From an uncultured Bacilli bacterium (lineage in GTDB: Bacteria > Bacillota_I > Bacilli_A > RF39 > UBA660), in the NCBI GenBank assembly GCA_947629815.1, contig CANRFG010000004.1, positions 266 to 64,265 on the forward strand: a stretch of DNA of 64,000 nucleotides. The letters run 5' to 3'. This document shows, piece by piece, positions 28,637-57,150 of the stretch. How positions within the stretch are numbered: the stretch's first letter is position 1; each line of letters starts with the position of its first letter. A program made the translations under genes and the position numbers. Under the pieces are notes generated by a model. That model ran no database searches. It was not told where the DNA came from and saw only the letters and a list, made by a program, of their open reading frames with translations.

Positions 28637-28646
28637 TAGGTGTAGT

Positions 28647-29597: not shown

Positions 29598-29598
29598 T

Positions 29599-41016: not shown

Positions 41017-41126
41017 TTCTTTTTTTTAATGTGAAATTATAATTATTGTAAAATAACATATATTATGGTATCATGTATAATGAATTTTAATTAATAAATT
41101 TTATTAATTTGTTGAGGAGAAAAAAT

Positions 41127-42182
41127 ATGATAGAGAGATTAGATGCTATAGAAAAAAGATATAATGAATTATCAGAAGAAATGGTTAAACCAGATGTCAT
41201 TTCAGATATTAAAAAAACACTTGAATTAACTAAAGAACAATCTTCACTTAAAGATGCATATGAGATATATCAAACATATAAAACAGTTTTATCAGATATT
41301 TCAACTGCAAAAGAAATGGTAAAAGACCCAGAAATGAGCGAATTTGCTAAAGAAGAACTAAATACTTTAGAAGAAAAAAAATCAAAATTAGAAAATGAAA
41401 TAGAAATACTTTTATTACCAAAAGACCCTAACGACAATAAAAATGTTATAGTTGAAATAAGAGGAGCAGCAGGTGGAGATGAAGGAAATATATTTGCTGG
41501 AGACTTATTTGATATGTATAAAAAATATTGTGAAAATAATGGTTGGAAAGTAGAAGTATTAGAAGAAGAAAAATCAGAAGCAGGTGGATATTCATTAATA
41601 AGTTTTTCAGTAAAAGGTGATAATGTTTATTCTAAACTAAAATACGAAAGTGGAGCGCATAGAGTACAGAGAGTACCTGTAACAGAAACACAAGGGAGAG
41701 TACATACATCAACTGCAACAGTTCTTGTAATGCCTGAAGCAGAGGAAGTCGATTTTGAACTAGACATGAACGAAGTTAGAATCGATATTACAAGAAGTAG
41801 TGGATGTGGAGGACAAGGCGTTAATACAACAGATTCAGCAGTAAGACTTACACATATACCAACAGGAATTGTTGTTTATTCTCAAACTGAAAGAAGTCAA
41901 ATAAAAAATAAAGAAAAAGCTATTAAAATTTTACAAACTAGATTATATGATTTAAAAATGCAAGAAAGAGAAAAAGAATTAGGAGAAGAAAGAAAAAGTA
42001 AAATAGGTACAGGTGACCGTTCAGAAAAAATAAGAACATACAATTATCCACAAAATAGAGTAACAGACCATAGAATTGGATTTACATTAAATACTCTTGA
42101 TAGAGTAATGAATGGTGAAATAGGTAAAGTTATAGATGCACTTATAGTAGAAGACCAAAATAGAAAATTAAGAGGAGAATGA
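41127..42182 (+). CDS. prfA: Peptide chain release factor 1
   Basis: PVT tripeptide, GGQ (SGCGGQGVNTTDSAVR). GAGGAG RBS at ATG 41127. Confidence 0.9.
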   Translation: MIERLDAIEKRYNELSEEMVKPDVISDIKKTLELTKEQSSLKDAYEIYQTYKTVLSDISTAKEMVKDPEMSEFAKEELNTLEEKKSKLENEIEILLLPKDPNDNKNVIVEIRGAAGGDEGNIFAGDLFDMYKKYCENNGWKVEVLEEEKSEAGGYSLISFSVKGDNVYSKLKYESGAHRVQRVPVTETQGRVHTSTATVLVMPEAEEVDFELDMNEVRIDITRSSGCGGQGVNTTDSAVRLTHIPTGIVVYSQTERSQIKNKEKAIKILQTRLYDLKMQEREKELGEERKSKIGTGDRSEKIRTYNYPQNRVTDHRIGFTLNTLDRVMNGEIGKVIDALIVEDQNRKLRGE

Positions 42183-42238
42183 CAAAATATTTTGTCATTT
42201 TAATTTATGTGGTATAATTTTATATAGTAGGTGATAGT

Positions 42239-43315
42239 ATGAGTAAAAGAGAAGCAGTGTTAGATAATAAATGTCCAAATTGTGGCGCTACCCTTGCTTT
42301 TGACCCTAAAATAGGAAAATGGAGTTGCAAATATTGTGATGGTGTATTTACACTAGAAGAATTACAAAAACATAATAATGCAAGTTCTGTTAAAAATAAT
42401 GCAAATGAAAATAAAGACGATGTAGATATTTCACATGTTTCATATCATTGTAATAATTGTGGAGCAGAAATAATTGCAGATGAACAAACAGCTGCAACAT
42501 TTTGTGTTTATTGTGGAAATACTGCTATACTTAAAAGTAAATTATCAAATAAATTCGCACCAAATAGAATAATACCTTTTAAAACAGAAAAAAAACAAGC
42601 AATAGAAGCCTTTAAAAAATTAGCGAAAGGAAAACCTCTAGTTCCAAAAGATTTTGTAAGCGAAAAAAACATAGAAAAAATAAGAGGAATTTATATACCA
42701 TTTTGGTTATATGACATAAAAGTAGAAGGAAACTTAGATTGTGATGCACAAAAAATAAGCACATGGACTGTTGGAAATACTCATTATACAAAAACAAGTA
42801 TATATAAATTATATAGAGCAGGGTCTATGGAATTTTATGGTGTACCTGTAGATGGCTCTACTAGATTTGCAAACGATATTATGAATACAATAGAACCATT
42901 TAGGTATGAAGATTTAACAGAATATAATCATGCTTATTTGTCAGGATTTTATGCTGAAAAATACGATGTAAATTCAGATACAGCATTTGAAGATGCTAAA
43001 AAAAGAAGTTTAGAATCAGCTAAAGAAATAATGATGAATGATAGTTTAGGATATACATCAAAAGTTGTTACTCAAAATACTTTATCTCCTTCTATTACAA
43101 AAACAGAATATATATTACTTCCTGTTTGGATGGTTAATGTAAAGTATAAAAATGAAATGTATCTTTTCGCAATGAATGGTCAAACAGGTGAGTTTGTAGG
43201 TAATATACCTCTTGATAAAACAAAAGCAGTAGTGTATGGAATAATAACTTTTGTAATATCTGTTTTAATTTGTATATTAGTTAGTTACTTGATATTTTTA
43301 GGTGGAGGGTATTAA
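42239..43315 (+). CDS. Double zinc-ribbon protein with C-terminal TM (YdjG-like)
   Basis: CPNCG..CKYCDG and CNNCG..CVYCGN. C-terminal hydrophobic anchor. Confidence 0.55.
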   Translation: MSKREAVLDNKCPNCGATLAFDPKIGKWSCKYCDGVFTLEELQKHNNASSVKNNANENKDDVDISHVSYHCNNCGAEIIADEQTAATFCVYCGNTAILKSKLSNKFAPNRIIPFKTEKKQAIEAFKKLAKGKPLVPKDFVSEKNIEKIRGIYIPFWLYDIKVEGNLDCDAQKISTWTVGNTHYTKTSIYKLYRAGSMEFYGVPVDGSTRFANDIMNTIEPFRYEDLTEYNHAYLSGFYAEKYDVNSDTAFEDAKKRSLESAKEIMMNDSLGYTSKVVTQNTLSPSITKTEYILLPVWMVNVKYKNEMYLFAMNGQTGEFVGNIPLDKTKAVVYGIITFVISVLICILVSYLIFLGGGY

Positions 43316-43316
43316 T

Positions 43317-44249
43317 ATGAAAACAATTAAAAAAATTATATGCTTATTTATAGTATTTTTTACAGGTATTACAATATCTAATGCATCAACACAAACTTTT
43401 GATAGACAACAACTTAATAATTATGGTGTAAATAAAAAATGGAATATAAATTCTAATAATTTATCAAATGTTTTAAACACATATAAAGTAGATGCAAGCG
43501 AAAAAATATATGATTATTCTGATATATTAACAGATGAAGAAGAAAAAGAATTATATGATAAAATAAATAAATTTATAAGTAAAACAAATATAGATATGGT
43601 TCTTGTTTCAGTAGATTTACCATATTATAGTGATAAAACAAATGAAGACTTTGCTGCTGATTTTTATGACTATAATGATTTTGGAATAGATTTTAAAAAT
43701 TATAGTGGAGTTTTACTATTAAGAAATACATATGAAAAGGATCCTTATTTTAATATATATACATTTGGGGATGCACAATTATATTTTTCATATAATAGAT
43801 TAGAAAGAACCTTAGATTATATATATAGTGATTTTCATAGTGGGTATTATTATGATGGAATTGATACATTTATAAATAGAATGACTTCATATTATAATTC
43901 AGGAATACCAAATGAAATGAAAGGATACAAAGTAAATGAAGATGGATATTTATATAAAATATATAGAGTGCCATTTATACCTGTTATATTAATATCTGGA
44001 ATAATTACTTTAATCTCTACTTTAATAATGGTACATAAAAATAAAATGGTCTTTACTGCTAAAAAAGCAACAGAATATTTAGATAAGAGTACAATTAACT
44101 ATACGAACAAACAAGATAATTTTATAACTTCTCATACTAGTAGTTATGTAATGTCTTCATCAAGTGGTGGTTCTGGTGGAGGAAGTTCTCATTCTTCTGG
44201 TGGAAGTAGTGGTGTAGGCCATAGTTCTGGTGGAGGACGCCATGGATAA
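43317..44249 (+). CDS. TPM-domain protein (YgcG/YdjH-like) with TM and Gly/Ser-rich tail
   Basis: Signal/TM. YDYSDILTDEEEKELYDKI is typical of TPM. C-terminal SSGGSGGGSSHSSGG. Confidence 0.7.
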   Translation: MKTIKKIICLFIVFFTGITISNASTQTFDRQQLNNYGVNKKWNINSNNLSNVLNTYKVDASEKIYDYSDILTDEEEKELYDKINKFISKTNIDMVLVSVDLPYYSDKTNEDFAADFYDYNDFGIDFKNYSGVLLLRNTYEKDPYFNIYTFGDAQLYFSYNRLERTLDYIYSDFHSGYYYDGIDTFINRMTSYYNSGIPNEMKGYKVNEDGYLYKIYRVPFIPVILISGIITLISTLIMVHKNKMVFTAKKATEYLDKSTINYTNKQDNFITSHTSSYVMSSSSGGSGGGSSHSSGGSSGVGHSSGGGRHG

Positions 44250-44298
44250 AAATATTGATTATTTCAATATTTTTTTTTATAATTAAAATGGTGGTATT

Positions 44299-45018
44299 AT
44301 GACTGATATAGAATATTTGAAAAAATATTTACCTAGTGATGAATTAGAAGAAGGAATAAAAAAATTAAAAAAAGGAATTCCTGTACAATATATAGTTGGT
44401 AATGTAGATTTCTATGGATATAAAATAAATGTCAATAAAAATGTTTTAATACCAAGATTTGAAACAGAACAATTAGTTTCTATAACAATCGATTATATAA
44501 ATAAAATGTTTGATAAAAAGATAAATATTTTAGATATAGGAACAGGTAGTGGTTGTATTTCCATAGCTTTGAAAAAAAAGCTTAATGCAGATGTAACTGC
44601 AATAGATATATCAGATGAAGCTTTAGAAGTTGCTATTAATAATGCAAAAGAAAATGATTGTGAAATAAATTTTATTAAGAGTGATTTATTTAACAATGTA
44701 CATGATAAATATGATGTTATAATAAGCAACCCACCATATATAAGTTATGATGAAGAAATAATGGATATAGTTAAAAATAATGAACCACACATTGCTCTTT
44801 ATGCTGAAGATAATGGATTATATTTTTATGAACAGATAATAAGTAAGTGTAGTAGTTATTTAAAAGAGAAAAGTATTATTGCTTTTGAAATAGGATACAC
44901 TCAAGCTTCAGCAATAAGTAAGATAGCTAAAATATATTTTCCAACATCAAAAATAATAGTAGAAAAAGATTTACAAGGAAAAGATAGGTTTTTATTTATA
45001 ATAAATAAAGGAGATTAG
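44299..45018 (+). CDS. prmC: Release factor glutamine N5-methyltransferase PrmC/HemK
   Basis: NPPY motif (ISNPPYIS). SAM-binding DIGTGSGCI. Confidence 0.8.
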   Translation: MTDIEYLKKYLPSDELEEGIKKLKKGIPVQYIVGNVDFYGYKINVNKNVLIPRFETEQLVSITIDYINKMFDKKINILDIGTGSGCISIALKKKLNADVTAIDISDEALEVAINNAKENDCEINFIKSDLFNNVHDKYDVIISNPPYISYDEEIMDIVKNNEPHIALYAEDNGLYFYEQIISKCSSYLKEKSIIAFEIGYTQASAISKIAKIYFPTSKIIVEKDLQGKDRFLFIINKGD

Positions 45019-45019
45019 T

Positions 45020-45496
45020 ATGAAGAATGAAATTAATATAACTATAGATAATAAAAATGATTTTTACAATAAATTTGATAATACTAAATTATCAGAAGAT
45101 TTAGGTAATTATATTCATTCCCAAAGTTTAGGAATGACACTTAAAAATAATTTTGTAATAAACATTAAAACTAGTTTTAAATTAAGTTCTAAAGAAATAA
45201 ATGATATAACTGATATGATTAGACAATATTTTGGTTTACAAGTACAAGAAACACTTATATATAATAAATTTGATAACTTAAAAAGAATTTTTTTGTCTAT
45301 TTTAGGAATAATACTTATTTTTATTTCACACTTTGTAGAAATAAAAAATGAGTTTCTAATTTCTGAAGTATTTTTAATAGTAGGTTGGGGAGCAATATGG
45401 GAAGTATTTGATAATGTACTTCTTAGTAATAATAAACAAAAATATAATTTAAAGTTATTAAAAAAATTAGTTAAAAGTAAAATTTCATTTGTATAG
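45020..45496 (+). CDS. Hypothetical membrane protein
   Basis: AAAGGAG RBS. Two C-terminal TM helices. Confidence 0.45.
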   Translation: MKNEINITIDNKNDFYNKFDNTKLSEDLGNYIHSQSLGMTLKNNFVINIKTSFKLSSKEINDITDMIRQYFGLQVQETLIYNKFDNLKRIFLSILGIILIFISHFVEIKNEFLISEVFLIVGWGAIWEVFDNVLLSNNKQKYNLKLLKKLVKSKISFV

Positions 45497-45596
45497 ATTT
45501 ATCAAAGTTACATTTCCATATAAAAATCATAAGTTTGAATTTGATATAGGTATAAAAATAGTGTAAAATGTAGTTGTAAAAAAGGAGTGAATTAAA

Positions 45597-46682
45597 ATGA
45601 ATGAAGAAAATAATTTAAATGAAATTAATAATTCAGTAGATAATAGTTTAAATAAAAATGAAAATCAGATAAATATAAATCAAGAAAATAACAATCAATT
45701 AAATAACAATATAAGTAATCAAAAGAATAACAAAAATACATTAAAAGTAATATTAATAGTAATACTTACAATACTATTAATAGCAGCATTAAGTTTTATA
45801 GTATATGATAAGTTTATCAATAAGGATGAAGTAAATAGTAATACAAACACTGAAGAAAATAGTAATCAGGGAAATAATACTCAAGCAAATGATGATAAAC
45901 AAAACAATAATCAAGAGAATAATAATCAACAAAATATAGAGGAAAATGACAATGCCAATAATTCTTCAATTGTTGTTGATGGAAATTTGCAGTACATGAT
46001 TAGTGATAAGGAAAAAGATTTGATAAAAAATCTTACATTTCCATTTAGTTATGTTAATTGGATTGGTAGTTCGTATGGAATAGTATCTCCAACCAATTTT
46101 AATGTTTCAAATATGACTAAGAATGATAAGATGTGGTTTACTCTTTCATTAACGGACAAATATAATGAATCTGGGGAGAGCAATCCAGATTGTAAAGACT
46201 GCACTTTGACAATTGGTGATGAATATTATAATACTTCTATAAATGAAGAAGAAGTCAAGAAGACATACGAAAAAATTTTTGGATATGAAACACCATTTGA
46301 AAATATGGATATAGATACAAAAGGTGGCATTCCTTGCTACACACCATATAAATATGATGCTAATACAAAGAGATATTGGGGAAATAGTAGTTGTGGAGGA
46401 GATACCTGTTCAATGTCTTTCAATATTATAACGAAAGTAGAGGAAGGTAACGATGAAATAATTGTTTATTTCCAATCTGGAATTTTTAATCCCTGTGAAG
46501 AGCCAGCTAAGATTGAAATGATAAATTATGATAAAGTGTTGTGGACAGGAACAAATAATATTGATATTGTAAACTCTGCTATAATAAATTTAGCGAAACA
46601 AAATAAATTAGATACATATAAGATAACATTTAAAAAACAAAGTGATGGAAAATACTATGTATATAGTGGAGAATGGCAATAG
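45597..46682 (+). CDS. N/Q-rich single-pass membrane protein with Cys-rich variable ectodomain (paralog A)
   Basis: N-terminal ~95 aa and C-terminal ~20 aa shared with 46793..48193. Central domain unrelated. Confidence 0.6.
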   Translation: MNEENNLNEINNSVDNSLNKNENQININQENNNQLNNNISNQKNNKNTLKVILIVILTILLIAALSFIVYDKFINKDEVNSNTNTEENSNQGNNTQANDDKQNNNQENNNQQNIEENDNANNSSIVVDGNLQYMISDKEKDLIKNLTFPFSYVNWIGSSYGIVSPTNFNVSNMTKNDKMWFTLSLTDKYNESGESNPDCKDCTLTIGDEYYNTSINEEEVKKTYEKIFGYETPFENMDIDTKGGIPCYTPYKYDANTKRYWGNSSCGGDTCSMSFNIITKVEEGNDEIIVYFQSGIFNPCEEPAKIEMINYDKVLWTGTNNIDIVNSAIINLAKQNKLDTYKITFKKQSDGKYYVYSGEWQ

Positions 46683-46732
46683 TCATTCTTTTTCCAATTT
46701 ACACAAAATCTGTAAAGAAAATAACCCCAAAC

Positions 46733-46763
46733 TTGACAAAGATTGGGGGGGGGAGTGTACAAT
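46733..46763 (+). promoter_or_regulatory. Candidate promoter TTGACA-19nt-TACAAT with G9 homopolymer (46745-46753) in the spacer
   Basis: Consensus -35. Spacer is 2 nt longer than the optimum solely because of the G tract. 30 bp upstream of ATG 46793. Confidence 0.45.
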
Positions 46764-46792
46764 ATAATTGTACAAAAAAGGAGTGAATTAAA

Positions 46793-48193
46793 ATGAATGA
46801 AGAAAATAATTTAAATGAAATTAATAATTCAGTAAATAATAGTTTAAATGAAAGTGATAATCAGCAAAATGTAAATCAAGAAAATAACAATCAATTAAAT
46901 AACAATATAAGTAATCAAAAGAATAACAAAAATACATTAAAAGTAATATTAATAGTAATACTTACAATACTATTAATAGCAGCATTAAGTTTTATAGTAT
47001 ATGATAAGTTTATTAATAATGATAAAGTAAATAGTTCAACAAATACTGAAGAAAATAGTAATCAGGGAAATACGAATGGGAATGAATTTTTAGGAAATAG
47101 TCAATACTCTTTAATAAATCTTTCTGAGGAAGAAAAAGCATTTTTAGAAAAGTATTCTATTTTATCATATGAACCATCATTGTCAGACGATAACAGATGG
47201 ATAAATATTTATTATGGTTTTGAAGATTCTAATACAATATGCTACAATTGTAAGAATAGTGATAAAAAAACTATAAAATTAAACGAAGAAATTCTTTATG
47301 GTACTTCATTTTCCTATGGATTTACTTATGGACTTGTTTTTTTAACAGAATCTGGTAACTTATATTTCTGTGATGATGAATGTTTACAAAATGGTAATGG
47401 CATTGATGATATGTATTTCATTTTAAATGATAAAAATATACTTGGTTTAAATTATATATATAATGATGATAGCATGTTCGCACTTTTAGTTGTTAAGACA
47501 AATAGTGGATTAAAAAAAATTTATTATAGTGATGTAAATGACCCTAACAATGAAGATTTAAAAAATGAAAATCATATAAATAGAATCGTTGAAATGCTAG
47601 ATGGTTCTATGTGCCCAACTAGAGAGACACAGACTAACACTGATTGTGATAAAGCACTTAATCCAAATAACAAAAATAGACTTGTTAATATGCTAGAATT
47701 AGCTATTTCTACACTCAATTATTATGAGGATAAAGTAGTTGGTAATACTTCTTATGGTTCATTTGATGCAAAACAAGTAGAGGAACACTTTAGAGAAATT
47801 TTTGGACCAGATGTTGAGTATAAAAACATGGATATTAGAAATGAAAAAGATAGTTTCTTAACATATGATTCAGAGACAAACATGTATAATGAAGGTAGTA
47901 TTATGGTAGGAGATACACCATATGAAAATAGAATTGAATTATATAAACAAGAACATGATAATGAAAATGAAATAAGTATATATTGGTACTCATATGGAGT
48001 TAATTATGCTTGTAATGAAGAATGTGAATATTTGACAGTAGATTCAAAAGGAAAAGAGTATAAAGTATCAAATGATAATATGGAAAGTGATATTGCTAAA
48101 TTAAAAAAAGAGGGAAATATTGCTATATATAAAATAACATTAAAAAAACAAAGTGATGGAAAATTCTATGTATATAGTGGAGAATGGCAATAA
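46793..48193 (+). CDS. N/Q-rich single-pass membrane protein with Cys-rich variable ectodomain (paralog B)
   Basis: First ~285 nt are about 93% identical to paralog A. C-terminus KITLKKQSDGKFYVYSGEWQ is shared. Confidence 0.6.
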   Translation: MNEENNLNEINNSVNNSLNESDNQQNVNQENNNQLNNNISNQKNNKNTLKVILIVILTILLIAALSFIVYDKFINNDKVNSSTNTEENSNQGNTNGNEFLGNSQYSLINLSEEEKAFLEKYSILSYEPSLSDDNRWINIYYGFEDSNTICYNCKNSDKKTIKLNEEILYGTSFSYGFTYGLVFLTESGNLYFCDDECLQNGNGIDDMYFILNDKNILGLNYIYNDDSMFALLVVKTNSGLKKIYYSDVNDPNNEDLKNENHINRIVEMLDGSMCPTRETQTNTDCDKALNPNNKNRLVNMLELAISTLNYYEDKVVGNTSYGSFDAKQVEEHFREIFGPDVEYKNMDIRNEKDSFLTYDSETNMYNEGSIMVGDTPYENRIELYKQEHDNENEISIYWYSYGVNYACNEECEYLTVDSKGKEYKVSNDNMESDIAKLKKEGNIAIYKITLKKQSDGKFYVYSGEWQ

Positions 48194-48218
48194 TAAAAAT
48201 CTTTTATAAAAGGATTGA

Positions 48219-48246
48219 AAAGCATTTACTAAAATGCTTTTTTTTT
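48219..48246 (+). terminator. Intrinsic terminator
   Basis: aaagcattt-act-aaatgcttt followed by T9. Confidence 0.6.
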
Positions 48247-48270
48247 GATATACTTATTAAGGTGATAAGT

Positions 48271-51200
48271 ATGCATGATAAATTAAAACTTTTATTAGAA
48301 CAAATAAATTTACCAATAGAAAACTACCAATATTTTAAAGATGGAAATTTAGTAAAAATAATTTCTAATAAAAATAAAGATTCATATGTTTTTATAATAC
48401 AAATAAAAAACATATTACCTGTTAATATATATGATTTATTTATAAAATTATTAAAAGAAAGATATAAAACAGTAGAAAATGTAGATGTAAAATTTGAAGT
48501 TTTAAATAAAGATTTAAATTTAATAAAAGATTATTATAAATACATAATAACAAATAAAAAAGAAGAAAATCCATTATTAGAAACATTTATAGACTATAAT
48601 GCATACTTAGAAGATGAAAAATTATATATAGAGTGTGCGAATATAGCAGAACAAATGAAATTAGAAACAATAACAAAAGATTTAGAAAATTTATTTTCCT
48701 CTGTAGGATATGGCAATATAAAAACTAATATAAAAATAAATCCTTCGTTAAATGAGGATTTACTTGAAGAAGTAAAACAAAGTTTAGTTGTAGAAATACC
48801 TAAAGAAGAAATAAAAAAAGAAATAGTTGAAGAAAAACCAAAACAAAAATATAATGGAATGCATAGAAGAGTAAAAACAGAAGATAGTCCTAATGTTGTT
48901 TTAGGAAGAACAATAGATTCTATTGCAACTGATATAAGAAACATAAAAACAGAAATAGATGATGTAACAGTAGATGCAAATGTATTTGGAATAGATTATT
49001 TCGAATCAAGCAAATCAAATTTTAAAATAATAACACTTAAAATAACAGATTTAACTGATAGTATATATTGTAAAATATTTTCAAAAGATGATGAAGAATA
49101 TAATACATTAAAAAGTAAATTAAAAGAAGGAAAATACTATAAAATAAGAGGATATACAAAAAATGATATATACTCAAAAGAATTAGTATTAAATGCAAGA
49201 GATATAAATATATTAGATAAAGTAATAGAACCAAGAAAAGATGAAGCAGAAATAAAAAGAGTTGAATTACATGCACATACTATGATGAGTCAAATGGATG
49301 GATTAACTAAAGTAGATTTAGGAAAACATACATGTGAACTTGTTAGTAGAGCAATTGATATGGGATATAGAGGAGTTGCAATAACAGACCATAATGGTTG
49401 TCAAGCATTTCCAATTGCATATGGAATAATAAATTCTTATAATAAAAAAATAGAAGATAAAGATAAACATTTTAAAGGTTTATATGGAACAGAATTAACG
49501 CTCGTAGATGATACAGTTAATGTTGTAGTAAGACCTACTGATTTACCACTTAAAGAAACTACATATGTCGTATTTGATACAGAAACAACAGGATTTAATG
49601 CAGCAGGAGAAGACCAAATGATAGAAATAGGCGCAGTTAAAATATGTAATGGAGAAATAATCGATAGATTTGATGAATTAATAGACCCAGGTAGACATAT
49701 ACCAGATAAAATAACAGAACTTACTTGTATAACTGATGAAATGGTAAAAGGTAAAGACAATGAAGAAACTGTAACACGCAAATTTTTAGAGTGGGCAAGT
49801 GATTTACCAATGGTTGCTCATAATGCTAAATTTGATATTTCATTTATAGAAATGTCAATGAAAAAATACAATATTGGACAATTTAAAAATACAGTAATTG
49901 ATACATTAGAATTATCAAGAACATTAGACCAAGGATTTGCTCGTCATAGTTTATCAGCTTTAGTAAAAAGATATGATGTTGAATGGGACGAAGATGCACA
50001 TCATAGAGCAGATTATGATGCACAAGGTACTGCATATGTATTCCACAAAATGTTACAAAAATTAACTGCTCAAAACTTTAAAAAAATAAGTGATTTAGAT
50101 AAACTAATATCAAAAGATGAAATACATAAATTTGGTAGAACTTTTCATTTTAATGCGATAGCAGTTAATAAAAAAGGACTTAAAAACTTGTTTAAAATAA
50201 TTTCACTTGCAAATACAGTTTATTTATATAAAACACCTAGAATACTTAGGAGTAAATTAGAAGAATTAAGAGAAGGCTTACTTATAGGTAGTGGTTGTTA
50301 TGAATCAGAAGTATTTATAGAAGCAAGAAGTAAAGAAGGACAAGAATTAACAAACATTATAAACTTTTATGATTATGTAGAAGTTCAACCTCCAGAAGTA
50401 TATGGTCATTTAATTCAAACAGGAGATTTTAATAATGAAATAGAACTACAAAACCATATTAAAAAAATAATAGAAGAAACAAAAAATGCAGGAAAAATAA
50501 TAGTCGCAACAGGAGATGTACATCATTTTGATAGAGAAGATAAAATATATAGAGAAATAATTATAAATCAAAAAGTTCCAGGTGGAGGAAGACACCCACT
50601 TTGTAAAAAAAATATAACAGAAATACCTTCACAACATTTTAGAACAACAGAAGAAATGTTACAAGATTTTAGTTTTCTAGATAAAAAACTTGCTTATGAA
50701 ATAGTTGTTGAAAATACAAATAAAGTACTAGACATGGTAGAAGAAATAGAAGTAATAATAGATACAGGCGGAATACCTTTTTCACCAAGGGTAAAAAGTG
50801 ATGATGGTAAGTCTTATCTTGATTGTCCAAGTGTAGTAACAGAACTTGTTTATTCAAAAGCTAAATCATGGTATGGAGATAATTTGCCATATAATATAGA
50901 AGAAAGAATAGCTAAAGAATTATATGGTGATATTGTATATAAATGTTGGAATGAAAAAATAAAACTTGAAAATCCAAATATGACAGAAGAAGAAATAGAA
51001 AAAAATACATTTTTAAACTTACATGAAAACATATTAAAAGGATTTGATTCAGTAAAAGAAACAATAAGGAATTACTTAAAAGAAAATTGGAGTGAAGAAG
51101 AATTTAGTGATGAACTACTAGAAAAGAAAGTAAAAAAAGAACTAGGTGGAATAATAGGTGGTGGATTTGACCCTATATATTTAATTGCCCAAAGACTTGT

Positions 51201-52932
51201 AAAACACTCCAATGATGAAGGATATCTAGTAGGTTCCCGTGGTTCAGTTGGTTCGTCTTTTGTTGCTACTATGATGGGGATAACAGAAGTAAATCCACTT
51301 CCCGCACATTACAGATGTTTAAAATGTAGAACAAGTATATTTGAAGATGAATCTGGAAAAGCATTAGGTGCAACATACTCATCAGGATTCGATTTGCCTG
51401 ATAAAATGTGTCCAAATTGTAGCGAAAAGATGTATAAAGATGGTCAAGATATGCCATTTGCTACATTCTTAGGTTTTAATGCAGATAAAGTACCTGATAT
51501 AGACCTTAATTTTTCAGATTTAAATCAAGCTTCTGCTCACGATTATACTAAAGTACTATTTGGTGTTGATAATGTTTATAGAGCAGGTACAATTGGTACT
51601 GTTGCAGATAAAACAGCCTTTGGATTTGTAAAAGGATATTGTGAAGAAAAAGGAGTATCTTTGCGTACTGCAGAAGTAGAAAGACTTGCTTTAGGTTGTA
51701 CAGGAGTTAAAAGAACAACAGGACAGCACCCTGGAGGAATAGTAGTTGTACCAGATTATATGGATGTTTCAGATTTTACCCCTTTTCAATTTCCGGCAGA
51801 TGATGCAACTTCTCCTTGGAGAACAACACACTTTGATTACCATGCAATCGACCAAGATTTATTAAAACTTGATATATTAGGTCATTCAGACCCAACTCAA
51901 CTTCGTATGATACAAGATTTAACTAAAACAGATATTCTAAAAGTACCTTTAGATGATAAAGATACTATGAGTATATTTACTTCCACTGCAGCGTTAGGTG
52001 TTACAAATGAACAAATTATGTGTCCAACAGGAACATTGGGTATACCTGAATTTGGTACACCATTTACAATAAGTATGGTTGAAGAAACTAAACCAACAAC
52101 ATTTGCTGAATTAGTAAAAATTTCAGGTTTATCTCATGGTACTGATGTTTGGCTTGGAAATGCACAGGAATTAATTAAAAATAATATTGTTCCATTTAAA
52201 GAAGTAATAGGTTGTCGTGATGATATTATGGTTTACTTAATGTATAAAGGTGTTGAACCAATTAAAGCATTTAAAATAATGGAATTTGTTCGTAAAGGAA
52301 AAGCCAGCAAATCACCAGATGAATGGGCTTTACATAGAAAGACGATGGAAGATGCTGGAATCGAAGAATGGTTTATTGACTCATGTCAAAAAATAAAATA
52401 CATGTTCCCAAAAGCACACGCTGCTGCATATGTCATTAGTGCATTTAGAATAGCTTGGTATAAAGTGCATATGCCAGTATACTTTTATGCATCATGGCTT
52501 ACTTCTAAAGCAACAGATGTAGATGTAGAAACTATGATAAAGGGATACGATGATATAAAAAATAAAATAATTGAAATAGAAAATAAAGGTTATGATGCTA
52601 CTAACAAAGAAAATGGTCAATTAGAAAGTTTAAAGGTAAGTTTAGAAGCAACAGCAAGAAATATTAAATTTTTACCTGTAGACTTAAATAAGAGTTTAGC
52701 AAGTACTTGGGATGTAGCAGATGAAACATCAATTTATCCACCTTTCTCATCTATAGATGGACTTGGTGATACAGTTGCTCAAAATATAGTTGAGGAAAGA
52801 GAAAAGAAAGAATTTTTAAGTATAGAAGACCTACAAAGAAGAGCTAAAATATCTACAACATTGATAGAAAAAATGAAATCTATGGGTATTTTAGATGGCA
52901 TGGAAGAATCTAGTCAATTAACTTTATTTTAA
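48271..52932 (+). CDS. polC: DNA polymerase III PolC-type
   Basis: OB domain, PHP, DEDD 3'-5' exonuclease (VVFDTETTG..., HNAKFDISF) and polymerase core. ATG 48271 after AGGTGA. ORF-track start 48184 overlaps the upstream terminator. Confidence 0.9.
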   Translation: MHDKLKLLLEQINLPIENYQYFKDGNLVKIISNKNKDSYVFIIQIKNILPVNIYDLFIKLLKERYKTVENVDVKFEVLNKDLNLIKDYYKYIITNKKEENPLLETFIDYNAYLEDEKLYIECANIAEQMKLETITKDLENLFSSVGYGNIKTNIKINPSLNEDLLEEVKQSLVVEIPKEEIKKEIVEEKPKQKYNGMHRRVKTEDSPNVVLGRTIDSIATDIRNIKTEIDDVTVDANVFGIDYFESSKSNFKIITLKITDLTDSIYCKIFSKDDEEYNTLKSKLKEGKYYKIRGYTKNDIYSKELVLNARDINILDKVIEPRKDEAEIKRVELHAHTMMSQMDGLTKVDLGKHTCELVSRAIDMGYRGVAITDHNGCQAFPIAYGIINSYNKKIEDKDKHFKGLYGTELTLVDDTVNVVVRPTDLPLKETTYVVFDTETTGFNAAGEDQMIEIGAVKICNGEIIDRFDELIDPGRHIPDKITELTCITDEMVKGKDNEETVTRKFLEWASDLPMVAHNAKFDISFIEMSMKKYNIGQFKNTVIDTLELSRTLDQGFARHSLSALVKRYDVEWDEDAHHRADYDAQGTAYVFHKMLQKLTAQNFKKISDLDKLISKDEIHKFGRTFHFNAIAVNKKGLKNLFKIISLANTVYLYKTPRILRSKLEELREGLLIGSGCYESEVFIEARSKEGQELTNIINFYDYVEVQPPEVYGHLIQTGDFNNEIELQNHIKKIIEETKNAGKIIVATGDVHHFDREDKIYREIIINQKVPGGGRHPLCKKNITEIPSQHFRTTEEMLQDFSFLDKKLAYEIVVENTNKVLDMVEEIEVIIDTGGIPFSPRVKSDDGKSYLDCPSVVTELVYSKAKSWYGDNLPYNIEERIAKELYGDIVYKCWNEKIKLENPNMTEEEIEKNTFLNLHENILKGFDSVKETIRNYLKENWSEEEFSDELLEKKVKKELGGIIGGGFDPIYLIAQRLVKHSNDEGYLVGSRGSVGSSFVATMMGITEVNPLPAHYRCLKCRTSIFEDESGKALGATYSSGFDLPDKMCPNCSEKMYKDGQDMPFATFLGFNADKVPDIDLNFSDLNQASAHDYTKVLFGVDNVYRAGTIGTVADKTAFGFVKGYCEEKGVSLRTAEVERLALGCTGVKRTTGQHPGGIVVVPDYMDVSDFTPFQFPADDATSPWRTTHFDYHAIDQDLLKLDILGHSDPTQLRMIQDLTKTDILKVPLDDKDTMSIFTSTAALGVTNEQIMCPTGTLGIPEFGTPFTISMVEETKPTTFAELVKISGLSHGTDVWLGNAQELIKNNIVPFKEVIGCRDDIMVYLMYKGVEPIKAFKIMEFVRKGKASKSPDEWALHRKTMEDAGIEEWFIDSCQKIKYMFPKAHAAAYVISAFRIAWYKVHMPVYFYASWLTSKATDVDVETMIKGYDDIKNKIIEIENKGYDATNKENGQLESLKVSLEATARNIKFLPVDLNKSLASTWDVADETSIYPPFSSIDGLGDTVAQNIVEEREKKEFLSIEDLQRRAKISTTLIEKMKSMGILDGMEESSQLTLF

Positions 52933-54556: not shown

Positions 54557-54660
54557 AATTAAAAAAAATTAATAAATTAGTAATAAAAATATTAAGTAAT
54601 TATATTATTTAATTGATTTTTATTACTTTTTTTTTTATAATATCTAAAGAGGTGTTGGGA

Positions 54661-57150
54661 ATGTTAAAACGTGAATATAAAAACATATTAATATTATTTT
54701 TAATTTTACTTTTAATAATAGTAATACCAACAGGATTCAATTTATTTGGGTCAGATACTGATTGGTTAAATCAACATACAATATTCCCAGAATACTTTAG
54801 ACAACTTTTTTACGATACAGGTAATTTAATACCTAATTTTTCATTAAATTATGGAGCTGGGCAAAATATGTTTAATTTTGCTTATTATGGATTATTAAAC
54901 CCTATAATACTAATTTCATATTTATTGCCTTTTATAGAAATGCGTTACTATATTATAGGAATAAATATAATTATATTATTTGTATCAATAGTTTTATTTT
55001 ATAAATGGCTTAGAAGTAATGAATTTACATCAAAATTATCTTTAATTACATCAATAATATTTATAACAGCAGGACCGATTATATTTCAAATGCATAGACA
55101 TATAATGTTTGTAAATTATATACCTTTTTTACTACTTGGACTTATAGGAACAGATTCATACATAAATAAAAATAAAAAAATATTACTTATAATAAGTGTA
55201 TTTTTAATGATAATGACAAGCTTTTATTATAGTGTAGGTGGAATAATTGTACTTATTTGTTACTTTATATTCAAAAAAATAAAAGTAAGAAAAAAAATAA
55301 ATATGAAATTATTTTTAAAAGAAATTTTATTTTATGTTTTAAATATATTAGTTTCAATACTTATGAGTTCAATACTTTTATTACCTGTCTTTTATACAAT
55401 ATTACAAACTAGAATAGGTAGTAATTATGATTTACTTAGTTTATTTATAATTGATATTGAACCTACTAAAATATTATATGGAGCATATTCGTTAGGACTA
55501 ACAGCTATCGCATTTATTTCTATATTATGGTTTATATATGTAAAGAAAAAAAATTATAGATTTTTAGGAATTACTTTATTTTTAATATTTTTTATTCCAA
55601 TATTTACATGTCTATTAAATGGAGGGCTTTATTTTAGAGCAAAAGTATTTATACCATTTATACCGCTTGTATGTATGATGATAGGACTATTTTTAAAAAA
55701 TTTAACTGAAAATAAAATAAAAATAGAAAATTTTGTAATATTTTTGTTTATCGCAAACATTTTAGTGCTAGCTAGTCAAACAGATTCAATATTATATTAT
55801 CTTGACTTTTTTGTATTTATATTAATATTAATATTATTTAAAAGATTCAAAAGACCATATATAGTTTATATACCTGTTGTTTTATTAAGTTTATTTTCTG
55901 GTTTTTATATGAATTTTACAGAAGATTATGTGAGTTTTGATGAATATGATAAAATATTCAATATAGATTCTAAAACATTATTAAAAGATATAGATACAAA
56001 CTATAGAGTAAACAATTTAGTTAATTCAAATTATACAGTAAATAAAATATATAATTCAAAATACTATACAACAAATATATATTCATCAACATATAATAAT
56101 AAATATTATAATTTTGTCAGAAATGAATTTAATGTAAGCAATCCATATTATAATAGTTTCCTATTAGGCTCAACTAATAATATATTATTTGATACATATA
56201 TGGGAAATAAATATTTAATAAGTGATATAGATACTAACCTAATTGGATATAATTTAAAAAATGAAGTTGATGGAATAAAACTATATGAAAATAAAAATGT
56301 ATTACCACTTGGATTTGTAAATAGTAATATGATGAGTGAAGAATATTATAATAATTTAGAATATCCATACAATTTAGAAGCACTTATAAATAATACAATA
56401 GTAGATAAAGAAGTTGATGGTAAATATGATACAAGTATAGAAAAAGTTAATTTACGATATACAAGTAAAAAACAAGGAATAAAAATGCGCAAATCTACAT
56501 CTAGATATACAATAACAGTAGAAGAAAAAGGAACAATAGATATAAAATTAAATAGACCCCTTGAAAATAAAATATTGATTATTTCTTTTGATGGAGTAAA
56601 ACCAAATGATTGTTCACAAAAAGAAGTAGCAATTACAATAAATGGAATAAAAAATAGTATTACTTGTGATACATGGATTTATCCAAATAATAACAATACG
56701 TTTCATTATGTAATATCAGAACAAAATTTACAAAATATTAAAGTAGAATTTAGTAAAGGCAATTTTATTATAGAAAATTTAAATGTTTATACTCTTGATT
56801 ATGATAAAATAATAAAAGATTATGATAAATTTAATATATCACAAATTAAAGATAATAAAATAGAAGGAACAATAAATGTAACAAAAAAAGGTTACTTTAA
56901 TTTGACAATACCATATGACAAAGGTTTTACAATATATGTAGATGATAAAAAAACAGATTATGAATTAGTAAACAAAGCTTTTATTGGTTTTCCAATAGAA
57001 GAAGGAGAACATACAATAAAAATAATATACAATTCTCCATTATTGTTACAAGGAAAAATATTATCTTTAATTGGATTTATTATATTTTTGGGTATTATTG
57101 GAAAAGAAGTAGAAGTTGGTAAATATTTTAAGAAAGTGAAGTGGAAGTAA
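54661..57150 (+). CDS. YfhO-family membrane glycosyltransferase-like protein
   Basis: About 830 aa. N-terminal ~420 aa carry 12+ TMs. Large extracytoplasmic C-terminal domain and final TM. AGAGGTG RBS at ATG 54661. Confidence 0.55.
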   Translation: MLKREYKNILILFLILLLIIVIPTGFNLFGSDTDWLNQHTIFPEYFRQLFYDTGNLIPNFSLNYGAGQNMFNFAYYGLLNPIILISYLLPFIEMRYYIIGINIIILFVSIVLFYKWLRSNEFTSKLSLITSIIFITAGPIIFQMHRHIMFVNYIPFLLLGLIGTDSYINKNKKILLIISVFLMIMTSFYYSVGGIIVLICYFIFKKIKVRKKINMKLFLKEILFYVLNILVSILMSSILLLPVFYTILQTRIGSNYDLLSLFIIDIEPTKILYGAYSLGLTAIAFISILWFIYVKKKNYRFLGITLFLIFFIPIFTCLLNGGLYFRAKVFIPFIPLVCMMIGLFLKNLTENKIKIENFVIFLFIANILVLASQTDSILYYLDFFVFILILILFKRFKRPYIVYIPVVLLSLFSGFYMNFTEDYVSFDEYDKIFNIDSKTLLKDIDTNYRVNNLVNSNYTVNKIYNSKYYTTNIYSSTYNNKYYNFVRNEFNVSNPYYNSFLLGSTNNILFDTYMGNKYLISDIDTNLIGYNLKNEVDGIKLYENKNVLPLGFVNSNMMSEEYYNNLEYPYNLEALINNTIVDKEVDGKYDTSIEKVNLRYTSKKQGIKMRKSTSRYTITVEEKGTIDIKLNRPLENKILIISFDGVKPNDCSQKEVAITINGIKNSITCDTWIYPNNNNTFHYVISEQNLQNIKVEFSKGNFIIENLNVYTLDYDKIIKDYDKFNISQIKDNKIEGTINVTKKGYFNLTIPYDKGFTIYVDDKKTDYELVNKAFIGFPIEEGEHTIKIIYNSPLLLQGKILSLIGFIIFLGIIGKEVEVGKYFKKVKWK

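What the first reader, a model, noticed from the sequence alone, without database searches (positions are those of the whole stretch)
45540..48193. Tandem paralogous surface-protein cassette with swapped ectodomains and a G9 tract in the promoter spacer
Genes 45597-46682 and 46793-48193 share about 93% nucleotide identity over the first ~285 nt. That stretch covers the N/Q-rich cytoplasmic tail plus the TM. They also share an upstream RBS region and the last ~20 codons (KIT[FL]KKQSDGK[YF]YVYSGEWQ). Their central Cys-rich extracellular domains are unrelated. This is a domain-cassette, gene-conversion architecture.
Only the second gene has a TTGACA -35 separated from TACAAT by 19 nt, and 9 of those are a G homopolymer (46745-46753). 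In a genome of about 25% GC, a G9 run is conspicuous. Loss of 2 G by slipped-strand mispairing would give the optimal 17-nt spacer. This is a classic phase-variation switch design, as in Neisseria or Mycoplasma surface antigens.
Basis: partly seen in the sequence, partly recalled or inferred. Interest (0 to 1): 0.7.

Follow-up and report, generated by a model that had tools for sequence, protein, structure and literature searches.

The report
Poly-G promoter switch, paralogous surface genes
Two neighbouring genes for membrane-anchored surface proteins share a near-identical front end, and the second carries a run of nine G's inside its promoter. The same odd G-run recurs at the same promoter position in relatives from at least five uncultured gut bacteria, so it is probably a slippage-driven random on/off switch, although no length change has yet been seen directly.

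Summary
The sequence features are real. Gene A (45597-46682) and gene B (46793-48193) share 268/285 nt at the 5' end, the RBS and 57/60 nt at the 3' end. G9 (46745-46753) lies between TTGACA and TACAAT (19-nt spacer) and is the only G/C run of 6 or more in 64 kb.

Two corrections. The C-terminal ~150 aa of A and B are homologous (35% identity), not unrelated. Gene A has its own homologous promoter, TTGATA-17-TAAAAT.

The genes belong to an uncharacterised family (no Pfam; about 1,950 50%-identity clusters) of N-terminally anchored proteins from uncultured low-GC, walled gut Bacilli.

Main new result: in 373 kb of related low-GC loci plus the window, every G/C run of 8 or more (11 non-redundant promoters, 5 lineages, G9-G13) sits in this same promoter spacer, on the sense strand. 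Tract-bearing spacers span 16-21 nt. Tract-less or interrupted paralogues have 17-18 nt.

The 5' module evolves in concert, and a 7-SNP patch looks like a gene-conversion footprint.

Best reading: a slipped-strand, promoter-spacer phase-variation family, a new member of a known kind. Direct polymorphism is unproven: three clonal sample pairs all show the same G9.

The parts
45541..45569 (+). Gene A promoter: TTGATA (-35), 17-nt spacer, TAAAAT (-10); no homopolymer
   Evidence: It aligns with gene B's promoter in A1 and A4.
45582..45589 (+). Gene A ribosome-binding site AAGGAGTG
   Evidence: identical in gene B.
45597..46682 (+). Gene A, 361 aa: N/Q-rich tail (1-48), TM (about 50-70), low-complexity linker, ectodomain with conserved C-terminal domain
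   Evidence: This is the P0002 sequence.
45560..45881 (+). Copy A of the shared 5' module (-10 region, RBS, first 285 nt of CDS)
   Evidence: 268/285 nt in the CDS and 19/20 nt upstream are identical to copy B.
46623..46682 (+). Conserved 3' end of gene A (…YKITFKKQSDGKYYVYSGEWQ*), 57/60 nt identical to gene B's end
   Evidence: The motif is invariant across the family.
46670..46693 (+). Weak terminator-like hairpin overlapping gene A's stop codon, followed by T5
   Evidence: -10.4 kcal/mol, z -2.4. It does not pass the consensus terminator scan. The same GGAGAATGGCAATAGTCATTCTTTTT occurs in related loci.
46725..46748 (+). Inverted repeat CCCCAAaCTT-GACA-AAGaTTGGGG centred on the -35 hexamer; its 3' arm runs into the G tract
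   Evidence: -12.2 kcal/mol, z -2.0. The equivalent repeat in L004 is CCTAATATT-GACA-AATATTAGG, with two compensatory pairs.
46733..46738 (+). Gene B -35 hexamer TTGACA
   Evidence: conserved column block in A4.
46745..46753 (+). G9 homopolymer inside the promoter spacer (proposed slipped-strand switch)
   Evidence: It is the only G/C run of 6 or more in the window. Homologous tracts of G9-G13 occur in 10 other family promoters.
46758..46763 (+). Gene B -10 hexamer TACAAT, 19 nt from the -35
   Evidence: The A, A, A, T columns are invariant in A4.
46763..46768 (+). Second, overlapping perfect TATAAT, 24 nt from the -35; a possible -10-only start
   Evidence: The 'double -10' register is seen in Lapin paralogues.
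46756..46774 (+). Perfect palindrome TGTACAAT-ATA-ATTGTACA covering the -10
   Evidence: Co-varying equivalents occur in L006 and L059.
46778..46785 (+). Gene B ribosome-binding site AAGGAGTG
46793..48193 (+). Gene B, 466 aa: same tail and TM, an extra membrane-proximal module (about 95-320), then the family C-terminal domain (323-466)
   Evidence: This is P0030; the 99% variant is P0001.
46754..47077 (+). Copy B of the shared 5' module
46835..46871 (+). Patch of 7 SNPs that are the only differences from near-clonal contigs L001 and L002; there gene B carries gene A's allele (gene-conversion footprint)
48134..48193 (+). Conserved 3' end of gene B
48217..48246 (+). Intrinsic-terminator-like hairpin and U-run after gene B
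   Evidence: -13 kcal/mol for the region, z -3.35.

Best explanation
Genes A and B are tandem paralogues of a large, uncharacterised family. The proteins have an N-terminal single-pass anchor (short cytoplasmic tail, one TM) and exposed ectodomains. They come from uncultured, low-GC, peptidoglycan-walled gut Bacilli.

Each gene carries a portable 5' module: -35, spacer, -10, RBS, MNE… tail, TM. Gene conversion homogenises this module among paralogues, while the ectodomains diverge and are shuffled.

In gene B, and in many relatives, the promoter spacer holds a poly-G tract. Slipped-strand mispairing during replication adds or removes G's, which changes the -35/-10 spacing. G9 gives 19 nt (poor or OFF), G8 gives 18 nt, and G7 gives 17 nt (optimal or ON, as in gene A). 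Gene B would therefore switch on and off stochastically and heritably, independently of constitutively promoted gene A, diversifying the cell surface.

Shown: the anatomy, the homology of the two promoters, the family-wide recurrence and length diversity of the tract, and concerted evolution of the module.

Inferred: that the hexamers are the active promoter, that tract length changes on short time-scales, and that it controls expression.
For: 1. G9 lies exactly between TTGACA and TACAAT, 19 nt apart. With G9, no 16-18-nt promoter match exists upstream of gene B. Gene A's homologous promoter scores 10/12 at 17 nt.
2. G9 is the only G/C run of 6 or more in 64 kb; the expectation for 9 or more is 0.0017. 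It is reproduced in independent contig L002.
3. In 373 kb of related low-GC loci plus the window, all 16 G/C runs of 8 or more (11 non-redundant promoters) are poly-G on the sense strand, 27-43 nt upstream of a family-gene ATG. They come from 5 lineages: window species, Lapin-030 bin39, NALB_7821b_8, L059 and L061.
4. In promoter alignment A4, the -35, the -10 (invariant A, A, A, T), the RBS and the start are conserved. The only length-variable zone is the G tract.
5. Tract-bearing promoters have spacers of 16, 17, 18, 18, 19, 19, 19, 19, 20 and 21 nt. Tract-less or interrupted paralogues have 17-18 nt: winA 17, Lap_g2 17, L003 18, GAIO_g3 18, L037 17.
6. Paralogous promoters with near-identical flanks differ only in the tract. 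Examples are G10 / GGGGGC / GTGGG in Lapin-030 and G12 / G9 / GGTGTGGG in L059, the pattern expected for slippage plus 'locking' interruptions.
7. The mechanism has precedent. Spacer indels switch vlp, maa2 and vmm in mycoplasmas (PMC2268961).
8. Concerted evolution and a conversion footprint support the cassette part.
Against: - No length polymorphism was seen where it could be checked. Window vs L002, L059 vs L060 and L061 vs L062 each have the same G9. These pairs are clonal (0 SNPs outside the conversion patch) and are low-coverage consensus assemblies.
- Three NALB paralogues all have G11.
- A homopolymer next to a -10 is not always a switch. The M. agalactiae vpma poly-T tract was shown not to vary (PMC2268961).
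- The TSS is unmapped.
- A perfect TATAAT (46763-46768) and possible read-through from gene A, whose terminator is weak, could give tract-independent expression.
- The human-gut clade of the family has no tract and a 15-nt TTGACA/TATAAT spacing. The simple hexamer model may therefore be incomplete in these organisms.
- Poly(dG) DNA geometry could make nominal spacer length a poor guide (own knowledge).
Confidence: 0.6

Rival explanations
1. Fixed promoter element. The poly-G is a conserved structural or protein-binding feature of the family promoter, for example a rigid A-form-like spacer, a weakening element, or part of an operator together with the flanking inverted repeats. It sets expression level or responds to a regulator and does not change length at an appreciable rate.
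For: - Tract length is the same in three clonal sample pairs.
- G11 occurs three times in one genome.
- Inverted repeats centred on the -35 (with two compensatory pairs between the window and L004) and over the -10 suggest operators.
- The M. agalactiae poly-T tract is a precedent for a non-variable tract.
Against: - Tract length ranges from 9 to 13 and the spacer from 16 to 21 nt among homologous promoters. Neither a defined binding site nor a fixed geometry is conserved.
- Paralogues with interrupted or absent tracts keep the same hexamers at 17-18 nt.
- The -35 inverted repeat is absent from the NALB, L059 and L061 promoters, which still carry tracts.
Confidence: 0.2
2. RNA-level element in an A-B operon. 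Gene B is mainly transcribed by read-through from gene A. The C-run/G-run hairpin (46725-46748) acts in the mRNA as an attenuator, processing site or stabiliser, and the 'promoter' hexamers are incidental.
For: - Gene A's terminator is weak and fails the consensus scan.
- The intergenic region folds better than shuffles: -33 kcal/mol, z -3.6, 0 of 200 shuffles.
- In some related arrays, downstream genes follow with no promoter.
Against: - The hairpin has no U-tract.
- The tract and hexamers also precede single-copy or first-in-array genes: L061 after glyS, L059 gene 1, L007 and L005.
- The -35, -10 and RBS spacing is conserved family-wide.
- There is no Rfam match.
Confidence: 0.07
3. Neutral hitch-hiker. 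A poly-G arose once in an ancestral 5' module and is merely copied around by gene conversion and duplication, with no function.
For: - The tract always has the same orientation and position within a homologous module that demonstrably spreads by conversion.
Against: - In genomes of 22-28% GC, a G9-13 run is mutationally fragile and AT-biased mutation should erase it. Yet it persists in 5 lineages whose proteins are at most 45% identical, while flanking spacer bases have diverged.
- Decayed versions (GTGGG, GGTGTGGG, GGGGGC) exist alongside intact ones. This implies turnover with retention.
Confidence: 0.08
4. Sequencing or assembly artefact, such as poly-G from two-colour Illumina dark cycles or a mis-joined repeat.
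For: - One related contig (L006) begins exactly with G11.
- L001 begins inside the repeat.
- Coverage of L001 and L002 is low.
Against: - The tract is internal, with unique sequence on both sides. It is identical in two assemblies.
- It occupies the same promoter position in 11 loci from different studies and assemblers.
Confidence: 0.02

Closest known systems
Mycoplasma hyorhinis vlp genes (also M. arthritidis maa2 and M. mycoides vmm): homopolymer or dinucleotide tract in the -35/-10 spacer
   Same: - Multiple tandem paralogous surface-protein genes.
- Each gene has a highly conserved 5' block (promoter, leader, N-terminal membrane-targeting region) and a divergent exposed region.
- A repeat tract between -35 and -10, whose indels switch transcription ON or OFF (PMC2268961; vlp details from own knowledge).
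- A very AT-rich genome.
   Different: - The tract here is poly-G, not poly-A or TA.
- The proteins have a cytoplasmic tail plus a TM anchor, with no lipobox Cys before residue 150.
- There are no tandem-repeat ectodomains.
- The host has a class A PBP and FtsW, so it is walled.
- There is no sequence homology.
- Switching has not been demonstrated here.
Neisseria meningitidis porA (poly-G) and opc (poly-C) promoter-spacer tracts; Bordetella fim poly-C; Haemophilus hif TA repeats (own knowledge)
   Same: - A G/C homopolymer placed in the promoter spacer, so that changes of 1-2 nt grade or switch transcription of a surface protein.
   Different: - Those are Gram-negative outer-membrane proteins or fimbriae at single loci.
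- They are not a multigene family with a shared, gene-converted 5' module.
- Their genomes are not extremely AT-rich.
Campylobacter jejuni poly-G/C contingency loci (own knowledge; C9 to C8 example in PMC5530802)
   Same: - A low-GC genome in which long G/C runs are rare, conspicuous and concentrated in surface-structure genes.
- Typical lengths are G8-G13.
   Different: - In C. jejuni most tracts are intragenic and act by frameshifting. Here every tract is in the promoter.
- The phylum and the gene family are different.
Mycoplasma agalactiae vpma promoter poly-T tract (negative precedent)
   Same: - A homopolymer immediately upstream of the -10 of a variable surface-protein locus.
   Different: - It was shown experimentally not to contribute to switching, which there is done by Xer1 inversions (PMC2268961).
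- No recombinase or inverted-repeat inversion system is evident at the window locus.
NTF2-like / cystatin-like alpha+beta fold (structural resemblance of the C-terminal domain)
   Same: - The AF2 model of gene A has pLDDT of about 85-93 over residues 200-361.
- Its best PDB matches are NTF2-like, SnoaL-like and cystatin-like proteins.
   Different: - There is no sequence-family match in Pfam or NCBIfam.
- Function cannot be transferred.

Membership tests
Slipped-strand promoter-spacer phase variation (contingency locus) | Homopolymer of about 8 nt or more located between the -35 and -10 hexamers | tested here: met
   G9 at 46745-46753 lies between TTGACA (46733-38) and TACAAT (46758-63).
Slipped-strand promoter-spacer phase variation (contingency locus) | The flanking hexamers are a genuine promoter | tested here: inconclusive
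   The -35, -10, RBS and ATG are conserved across 13 family promoters (A4). A homologous 17-nt-spaced promoter precedes gene A. No TSS or expression data exist.
Slipped-strand promoter-spacer phase variation (contingency locus) | Tract is strongly over-represented against the genome background and tied to a class of surface genes | tested here: met
   All G/C runs of 8 or more, in 373 kb of related loci plus the 64-kb window, lie in family promoters. The iid expectation in the window is 0.0017.
Slipped-strand promoter-spacer phase variation (contingency locus) | Tract length differs among homologous promoters with conserved flanks, moving the spacer in and out of 17±1 nt | tested here: met
   Tracts are G9-G13 and spacers 16-21 nt. 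Paralogues G10/GGGGGC/GTGGG and G12/G9/GGTGTGGG share the same flanks.
Slipped-strand promoter-spacer phase variation (contingency locus) | Length polymorphism within a strain or population (reads or isolates) | tested here: inconclusive
   Three clonal contig pairs show identical G9. Only consensus assemblies were available, some at 3-5x coverage. A metagenome pattern scan found no further copies.
Slipped-strand promoter-spacer phase variation (contingency locus) | Expression switches reversibly with tract length | not testable with these tools
   Needs reporters, transcriptomics or cultured isolates.
Mycoplasma Vlp-type variable surface lipoproteins | Lipoprotein signal peptide with lipobox cysteine | tested here: not met
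   The first Cys is at residue 199 in A and 150 in B. The N-terminus is a 48-aa N/Q-rich tail followed by a TM.
Mycoplasma Vlp-type variable surface lipoproteins | Conserved 5' block (promoter with homopolymer plus leader) shared by tandem paralogues | tested here: met
Mycoplasma Vlp-type variable surface lipoproteins | Size-variable tandem-repeat external domain; wall-less host | tested here: not met
   Only imperfect low-complexity repeats are present in the N/Q tail. The window encodes a class A PBP and YfhO.
Silent-cassette gene-conversion antigenic variation (pilE/pilS, vlsE type) | Single expression site plus promoterless partial cassettes | tested here: not met
   Both genes are complete ORFs with RBS, start, stop and their own promoter-like elements.
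Silent-cassette gene-conversion antigenic variation (pilE/pilS, vlsE type) | Segmental non-reciprocal sequence transfer between copies | tested here: met
   Seven clustered SNPs in gene B nt 43-79 equal gene A's allele in L001 and L002, with no other SNP in about 10.6 kb. Within-genome 5'-module identity exceeds between-genome identity. Caveat: bubble-popping at 3-4x coverage could mimic the SNP patch.
[not shown]
   [not shown]

The most novel reading that the evidence does not exclude
The poly-G may not be merely a length counter. It could be one arm of a conserved DNA or RNA structure. The upstream C-run pairs with the G-run around the -35, with compensatory changes between species, and a co-varying palindrome covers the -10. 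Together these could form a structure- or regulator-gated switch that coordinates which member of the whole paralogue family is expressed, in the manner of mutually exclusive expression. That would be a control logic not described for homopolymer contingency loci.

A more modest novel reading is that this is the first 'phasome' of an uncultured, walled gut Bacilli lineage. It would consist of a family of about 2,000 clusters of surface proteins whose portable promoter-anchor module carries the mutable tract.
Probability: 0.1. Interest if true: 0.8.

Novelty: new member of a known kind. Interest (0 to 1): 0.6.

Why it matters
Phase-variable surface proteins are well studied in pathogens such as Neisseria, Haemophilus, Campylobacter and mycoplasmas. 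Work on gut commensals has focused on invertible promoters (for example PMC11602134 and PMC10028968, listed).

Here an uncharacterised protein family, with about 1,950 50%-identity clusters and no Pfam model, carries the hallmark of a homopolymer contingency locus in at least five lineages of uncultured, low-GC gut Bacilli. The tract comes with a gene-converted promoter-anchor cassette and shuffled ectodomains.

If confirmed, three things follow:
- These organisms diversify their surface stochastically, which bears on phage and immune (IgA) escape in the gut.
- There would be a simple sequence signature, poly-G between TTGACA and TATAAT upstream of MNE…FIVYDK genes, for mining phase-variable genes in MAGs.
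- Such genes would be flagged as sites where assemblies break and where consensus sequences hide population heterogeneity.

Tried and rejected
- Exact look-up of gene B in public assemblies gave nothing. The 99% variant P0001 gave L001 and L002.
- A metagenome-wide scan for the exact flanks with a variable tract (AACTTGACAAAGATT N4-16 AGTGTACAATATAATTG) returned 0 hits. No further samples of this locus were therefore available.
- The look-up of encoding contigs collapses same-strain places: 4 similar places for P0008 and 1 for P0006 were not shown. Extra copies of the Lapin and NALB tracts could not be compared. P0004 is not on record.
- Pfam, NCBIfam and Rfam gave only sub-threshold hits to the TM or low-complexity region, or nothing.
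- No tRNA, mobile-element or inversion signature was found near the locus. A recombinase-driven switch was therefore not pursued.
- The consensus terminator scan found no terminator in 44900-48400. The hairpins are reported from folding only.
- The anti-sigma-factor idea was dropped. The weak Sigma_reg_N hit (E about 1e-3, below cutoff) covers only the TM, and relatives have tails of about 10 aa.
- The artefact explanation was rejected.
- Literature searches found no description of this family or of poly-G promoter switches in these lineages. Absence from this library is not proof of absence.
Full report
**Observation**

The window is 24.4% GC. Two same-strand ORFs lie at 45597-46682 (gene A, 361 aa) and 46793-48193 (gene B, 466 aa).

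- Anchored at the ATGs, 268 of the first 285 nt are identical. Nucleotides 80-221 are perfectly identical.
- 19 of the 20 nt upstream, including the RBS AAGGAGTG, are identical.
- 57 of the last 60 nt are identical.
- G9 occupies 46745-46753, between TTGACA (46733-46738) and TACAAT (46758-46763), which makes a 19-nt spacer.
- It is the only G or C run of 6 or more in 64 kb. The next longest are four G5 runs. An iid model expects 0.0017 runs of 9 or more.
- An independent metagenome contig, L002 (ENA ERZ27249608), spans both genes and has the same G9 and flanks. The tract is therefore real sequence.

- The ectodomains are not unrelated. A 214-361 and B 323-466 align at 35% identity, E 6e-17.
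- Gene A is not promoterless. TTGATA-17 nt-TAAAAT (45541-45569) is one of the highest-scoring + strand promoter matches in the scanned 44900-48400 region (10/12, tied). It aligns column for column with gene B's hexamers. The duplicated unit therefore begins at the -35.

**What the genes are**

Neither protein matches Pfam or NCBIfam above threshold. The sub-threshold hits cover only the TM and low-complexity region. There is no Rfam hit in 45300-48400.

Both proteins have a 48-residue tail with 26-27 N+Q, one strong hydrophobic segment (about residues 50-70), and then the exposed part. A has 6 Cys and B has 8, partly as CxxC or CxxxC pairs.

A word-indexed search found 29 relatives. A profile search of 1.84 billion cluster representatives found 1,957 at E ≤ 1e-3, 379 at ≤ 1e-10 and 59 at ≤ 1e-30. 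Most are 260-340 aa. Ten sampled members have no Pfam domain apart from one zinc ribbon.

Alignment A3 shows the family signature:
- MNE…, a TM, then FIVYDKxIKK;
- a variable middle;
- (I/V)FGPD…Y.N, CGGD, IYKAEK..DEIYVY;
- an invariant C-terminal YKxTFKKQSDGKYYxYSGEW.

The conserved C-terminus is therefore a protein-level constraint across species, not only a product of conversion. At the DNA level it also overlaps a weak terminator-like hairpin, GGAGAATGGCAATAGTCATTCTTTTT (46670-46693), which recurs in other genomes.

Gene B carries an additional membrane-proximal module. It resembles separate 201-204-aa 'short' family genes of a human-gut clade, which share the same anchor and end in …KTTSGNKKIVLK (E 1e-7). 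A third ectodomain type sits behind the same anchor in L004. This supports a shuffled-cassette view.

**Host and context**

Relatives come from MAGs labelled uncultured Bacilli (rabbit 'Lapin' bins), Clostridium sp. NALB_7821b_8, Tenericutes UMGS872 and Mollicutes, and from human-gut metagenomes.

The window is core chromosome. It carries dnaE, polA, argS, prfA, prmC and polC, together with a class A PBP and YfhO, so the organism has a wall. Relatives have FtsW/RodA next to the arrays.

The array lies downstream of prfA-prmC both here and in the human-gut clade locus L037.

**Gene conversion**

L001 and L002 are 99.8-99.9% identical to the window over 7.7 kb and 4.4 kb. All 7 mismatches fall in gene B nt 43-79 (window 46835-46871), and at each one the contigs carry gene A's base. 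There are no other SNPs.

This is what a short conversion tract from A into B would leave. The caveat is that both contigs have only 3-4x coverage, and assembler bubble-popping within a repeat could produce the same pattern.

Independent support comes from the 5' module (-40 to +135):
- It is 72-92% identical among most same-genome paralogue pairs (NALB's divergent L006 copy is 62-64% to its genome-mates).
- It is 56-64% identical between genomes.
- The remaining gene bodies are only about 30-76% identical.

Paralogues in NALB_7821b_8 mostly lie at contig ends, as expected for repeats that break assemblies.

**Key comparative result**

I fetched 63 related loci. In the low-GC ones (373 kb) plus the window, every G/C run of 8 or more has the same three properties. 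It is poly-G, it is on the sense strand, and it lies 27-43 nt upstream of the ATG of a family gene.

The non-redundant tract-bearing promoters are:

| Promoter | Tract |
|---|---|
| Window gene B | G9 |
| Lapin-030 bin39 gene 0 | G10 |
| NALB L005 | G13 |
| NALB L006 | G11 |
| NALB L007 | G11 |
| NALB L009 | G11 |
| NALB L012 | G11 |
| NALB L014 | G12 |
| L059 gene 1 | G12 |
| L059 gene 2 | G9 |
| L061 | G9 |

That makes eleven promoters in five lineages, whose proteins are at most about 45% identical to A or B.

In promoter alignment A4, the -35 (TTGAC-A), the -10 (TAnAAT, with four invariant columns), GGAGTG and ATGAAyGAA are conserved. The only length-variable zone is the G tract.

Spacer lengths:
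- Tract-bearing promoters: 16, 17, 18, 18, 19, 19, 19, 19, 20 and 21 nt.
- Tract-less or interrupted paralogues: 17 (gene A), 17 (Lapin g2, via the second -10), 18 (L003), 18 (L059 g3) and 17 (L037).

Within a genome, promoters with near-identical flanks differ essentially only in the tract. Examples are G10 vs GGGGGC vs GTGGG in Lapin-030, and G12 vs G9 vs GGTGTGGG in L059.

Three features fit hypermutable contingency promoters, most of which are caught in sub-optimal (OFF or low) states:
- a G-run that persists in genomes of 22-28% GC;
- tract length that is unconstrained, so that it drags the spacer away from the optimum;
- 'locked' interrupted copies that sit at the optimum.

They fit a fixed binding site or fixed geometry poorly. 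A sister clade (human gut, L024-L046, L063) has the same arrays and module but no tract. The tract has therefore been gained or lost at species-level distances.

**Mechanism proposed**

The model is slipped-strand mispairing in the G tract, which changes the -35/-10 spacing.
- G9 gives 19 nt. No 16-18-nt promoter match then exists upstream of gene B.
- G8 gives 18 nt.
- G7 gives 17 nt with an 11/12 consensus match, better than gene A's 10/12.

The mechanism itself is established for vlp, maa2 and vmm in mycoplasmas (PMC2268961). From my own knowledge it is also established for Neisseria porA and opc, Bordetella fim and Haemophilus hif.

The anatomy and the comparative pattern are shown. That the hexamers are the active promoter, that the tract changes length on short time-scales, and that it governs expression are all inferred.

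**Evidence against, and limits**

Direct polymorphism could not be demonstrated.
- Window vs L002, L059 vs L060 and L061 vs L062 each have identical G9.
- These pairs are clonal: 100% identity over 2.2 kb and 1.5 kb, and 0 SNPs outside the conversion patch.
- They are consensus assemblies, so the test is weak.
- A pattern scan of JGI metagenomes found no further copy. The contig look-up tool hides same-strain places.

Other limits:
- The M. agalactiae vpma poly-T tract is a published example of a promoter homopolymer that does not switch.
- A perfect TATAAT at 46763-46768 and read-through from gene A could give tract-independent expression.
- The human-gut clade's 15-nt TTGACA/TATAAT spacing shows that the hexamer model may be incomplete.

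**Additional structure**

- An inverted repeat centred on the GACA of the -35 lies at 46725-46748 (-12.2 kcal/mol as RNA, z -2.0). Its 3' arm enters the G tract. The Lapin-030 equivalent keeps the pairing through two double substitutions. It is absent from the NALB, L059 and L061 promoters.
- A perfect 8+3+8 palindrome, TGTACAAT-ATA-ATTGTACA (46756-46774), covers the -10. L006 (TACAAT-ATT-ATTGTA) and all three L059 genes (TATAAT-NNT-ATTATA) have co-varying equivalents. Gene A does not.
- These may be operators. They feed the less likely 'fixed element or regulator' and 'structure-gated' readings.

**Comparison and novelty**

Functionally the closest system is the M. hyorhinis vlp family. Both have tandem paralogues, a conserved promoter-leader-anchor block, a homopolymer in the spacer and divergent exposed domains.

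It is not a member of that family:
- it has no lipobox;
- it has no tandem-repeat ectodomain;
- the host is walled;
- there is no homology.

It is also not a silent-cassette system, because both genes are complete.

I found no paper in the held library describing this family or poly-G promoter tracts in these lineages.

**Verdict**

This is a real and non-random feature. It is most likely (about 0.6) a homopolymer promoter-spacer phase-variation module in a new gene family and a new host lineage, making it a new member of a known kind. Interest is 0.6.

Noticed in passing
window 46756-46774: A perfect 8+3+8 palindrome, TGTACAAT-ATA-ATTGTACA, covers gene B's -10. Co-varying equivalents occur in other family promoters: L006 TACAAT-ATT-ATTGTA, and L059 genes 1-3 TATAAT-GGT/AGT-ATTATA. 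Gene A has none. It may be an operator.
   Followed up: partly
window 46725-46748; L004 105-126: An inverted repeat is centred on the GACA of the -35 hexamer, and its 3' arm runs into the poly-G. The window has CCCCAAaCTT/AAGaTTGGGG and Lapin-030 has CCTAATATT/AATATTAGG, with two compensatory pairs. It is absent from the NALB, L059 and L061 promoters.
   Followed up: partly
window 46670-46693: Gene A's stop codon lies in the loop of a weak terminator-like hairpin followed by T5. The same GGAGAATGGCAATAGTCATTCTTTTT follows family genes in other genomes. Part of the 3'-end nucleotide conservation may therefore be a transcription signal.
   Followed up: partly
window 47075-47760 (gene B residues about 95-320): Gene B looks like a fusion. 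Its membrane-proximal module resembles stand-alone 201-204-aa 'short' family genes (ending KTTSGNKKIVLK). In the human-gut clade these sit immediately upstream of a C-terminal-domain gene (BLASTP E 1e-7).
   Followed up: partly
L002 4405-4436 vs window 48269 onward: Contig L002 diverges from the window exactly at the polC start region (…GGTGATAATATGGCTAAAAGAAG… instead of …GGTGATAAGTATGCATGATAAA…). This is either a contig-end chimera at 2.9x coverage or a rearrangement.
   Followed up: no
window 48184-52932: The mechanical ORF for PolC starts at 48184 and overlaps gene B's end. The likely true start is the ATG at 48273 (MHDKLK…), preceded by AAGGTG. The gene caller gave 1,553 aa on L001.
   Followed up: partly
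L058 (same sample as L001), 511-2430: Two further tandem paralogues (P0007 and a P0004-like gene) have a gene-A-type AGTGTAAAATG -10 region and no poly-G. The second follows after only 15 nt, in operon style. This is probably another locus of the same or a sister genome.
   Followed up: partly
L017-L015 set: JAMPDH01 contigs (NALB_7821b_8): At least 11 family genes occur in one MAG, most within a few hundred bases of contig ends, and one contig (L006) starts exactly with G11. The family and its tracts appear to fragment short-read assemblies.
   Followed up: partly
window 41109-45018 vs L037 1137-2414: The family array lies downstream of prfA-prmC both in the window and in the human-gut clade. 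In the window, two genes (zinc-ribbon protein 42239-43315 and TPM-domain protein 43302-44249) are inserted between prfA and prmC. A 158-aa membrane protein (45020-45496) precedes gene A.
   Followed up: partly
window 22034-23359: This ORF has Schlafen AlbA_2 and HATPase_c_4 domains (a putative DNA-binding or ATPase regulator or defence-type protein) and sits among housekeeping genes.
   Followed up: no
window 28001-30969 and 54613-57150: GC drops to 17% at 28-30 kb, next to a DUF6056 membrane protein (29599-30969). A YfhO-family protein lies at 54613-57150. Both suggest cell-envelope glycosylation genes near the surface-protein array.
   Followed up: no
window 45597-45740 and 46793-46936: The 48-aa N/Q-rich cytoplasmic tail is specific to this genome's copies; relatives have tails of about 10-15 aa. 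It is built from imperfect 15- and 33-nt AAT-rich repeats (TRF), suggesting recent expansion by slippage.
   Followed up: partly
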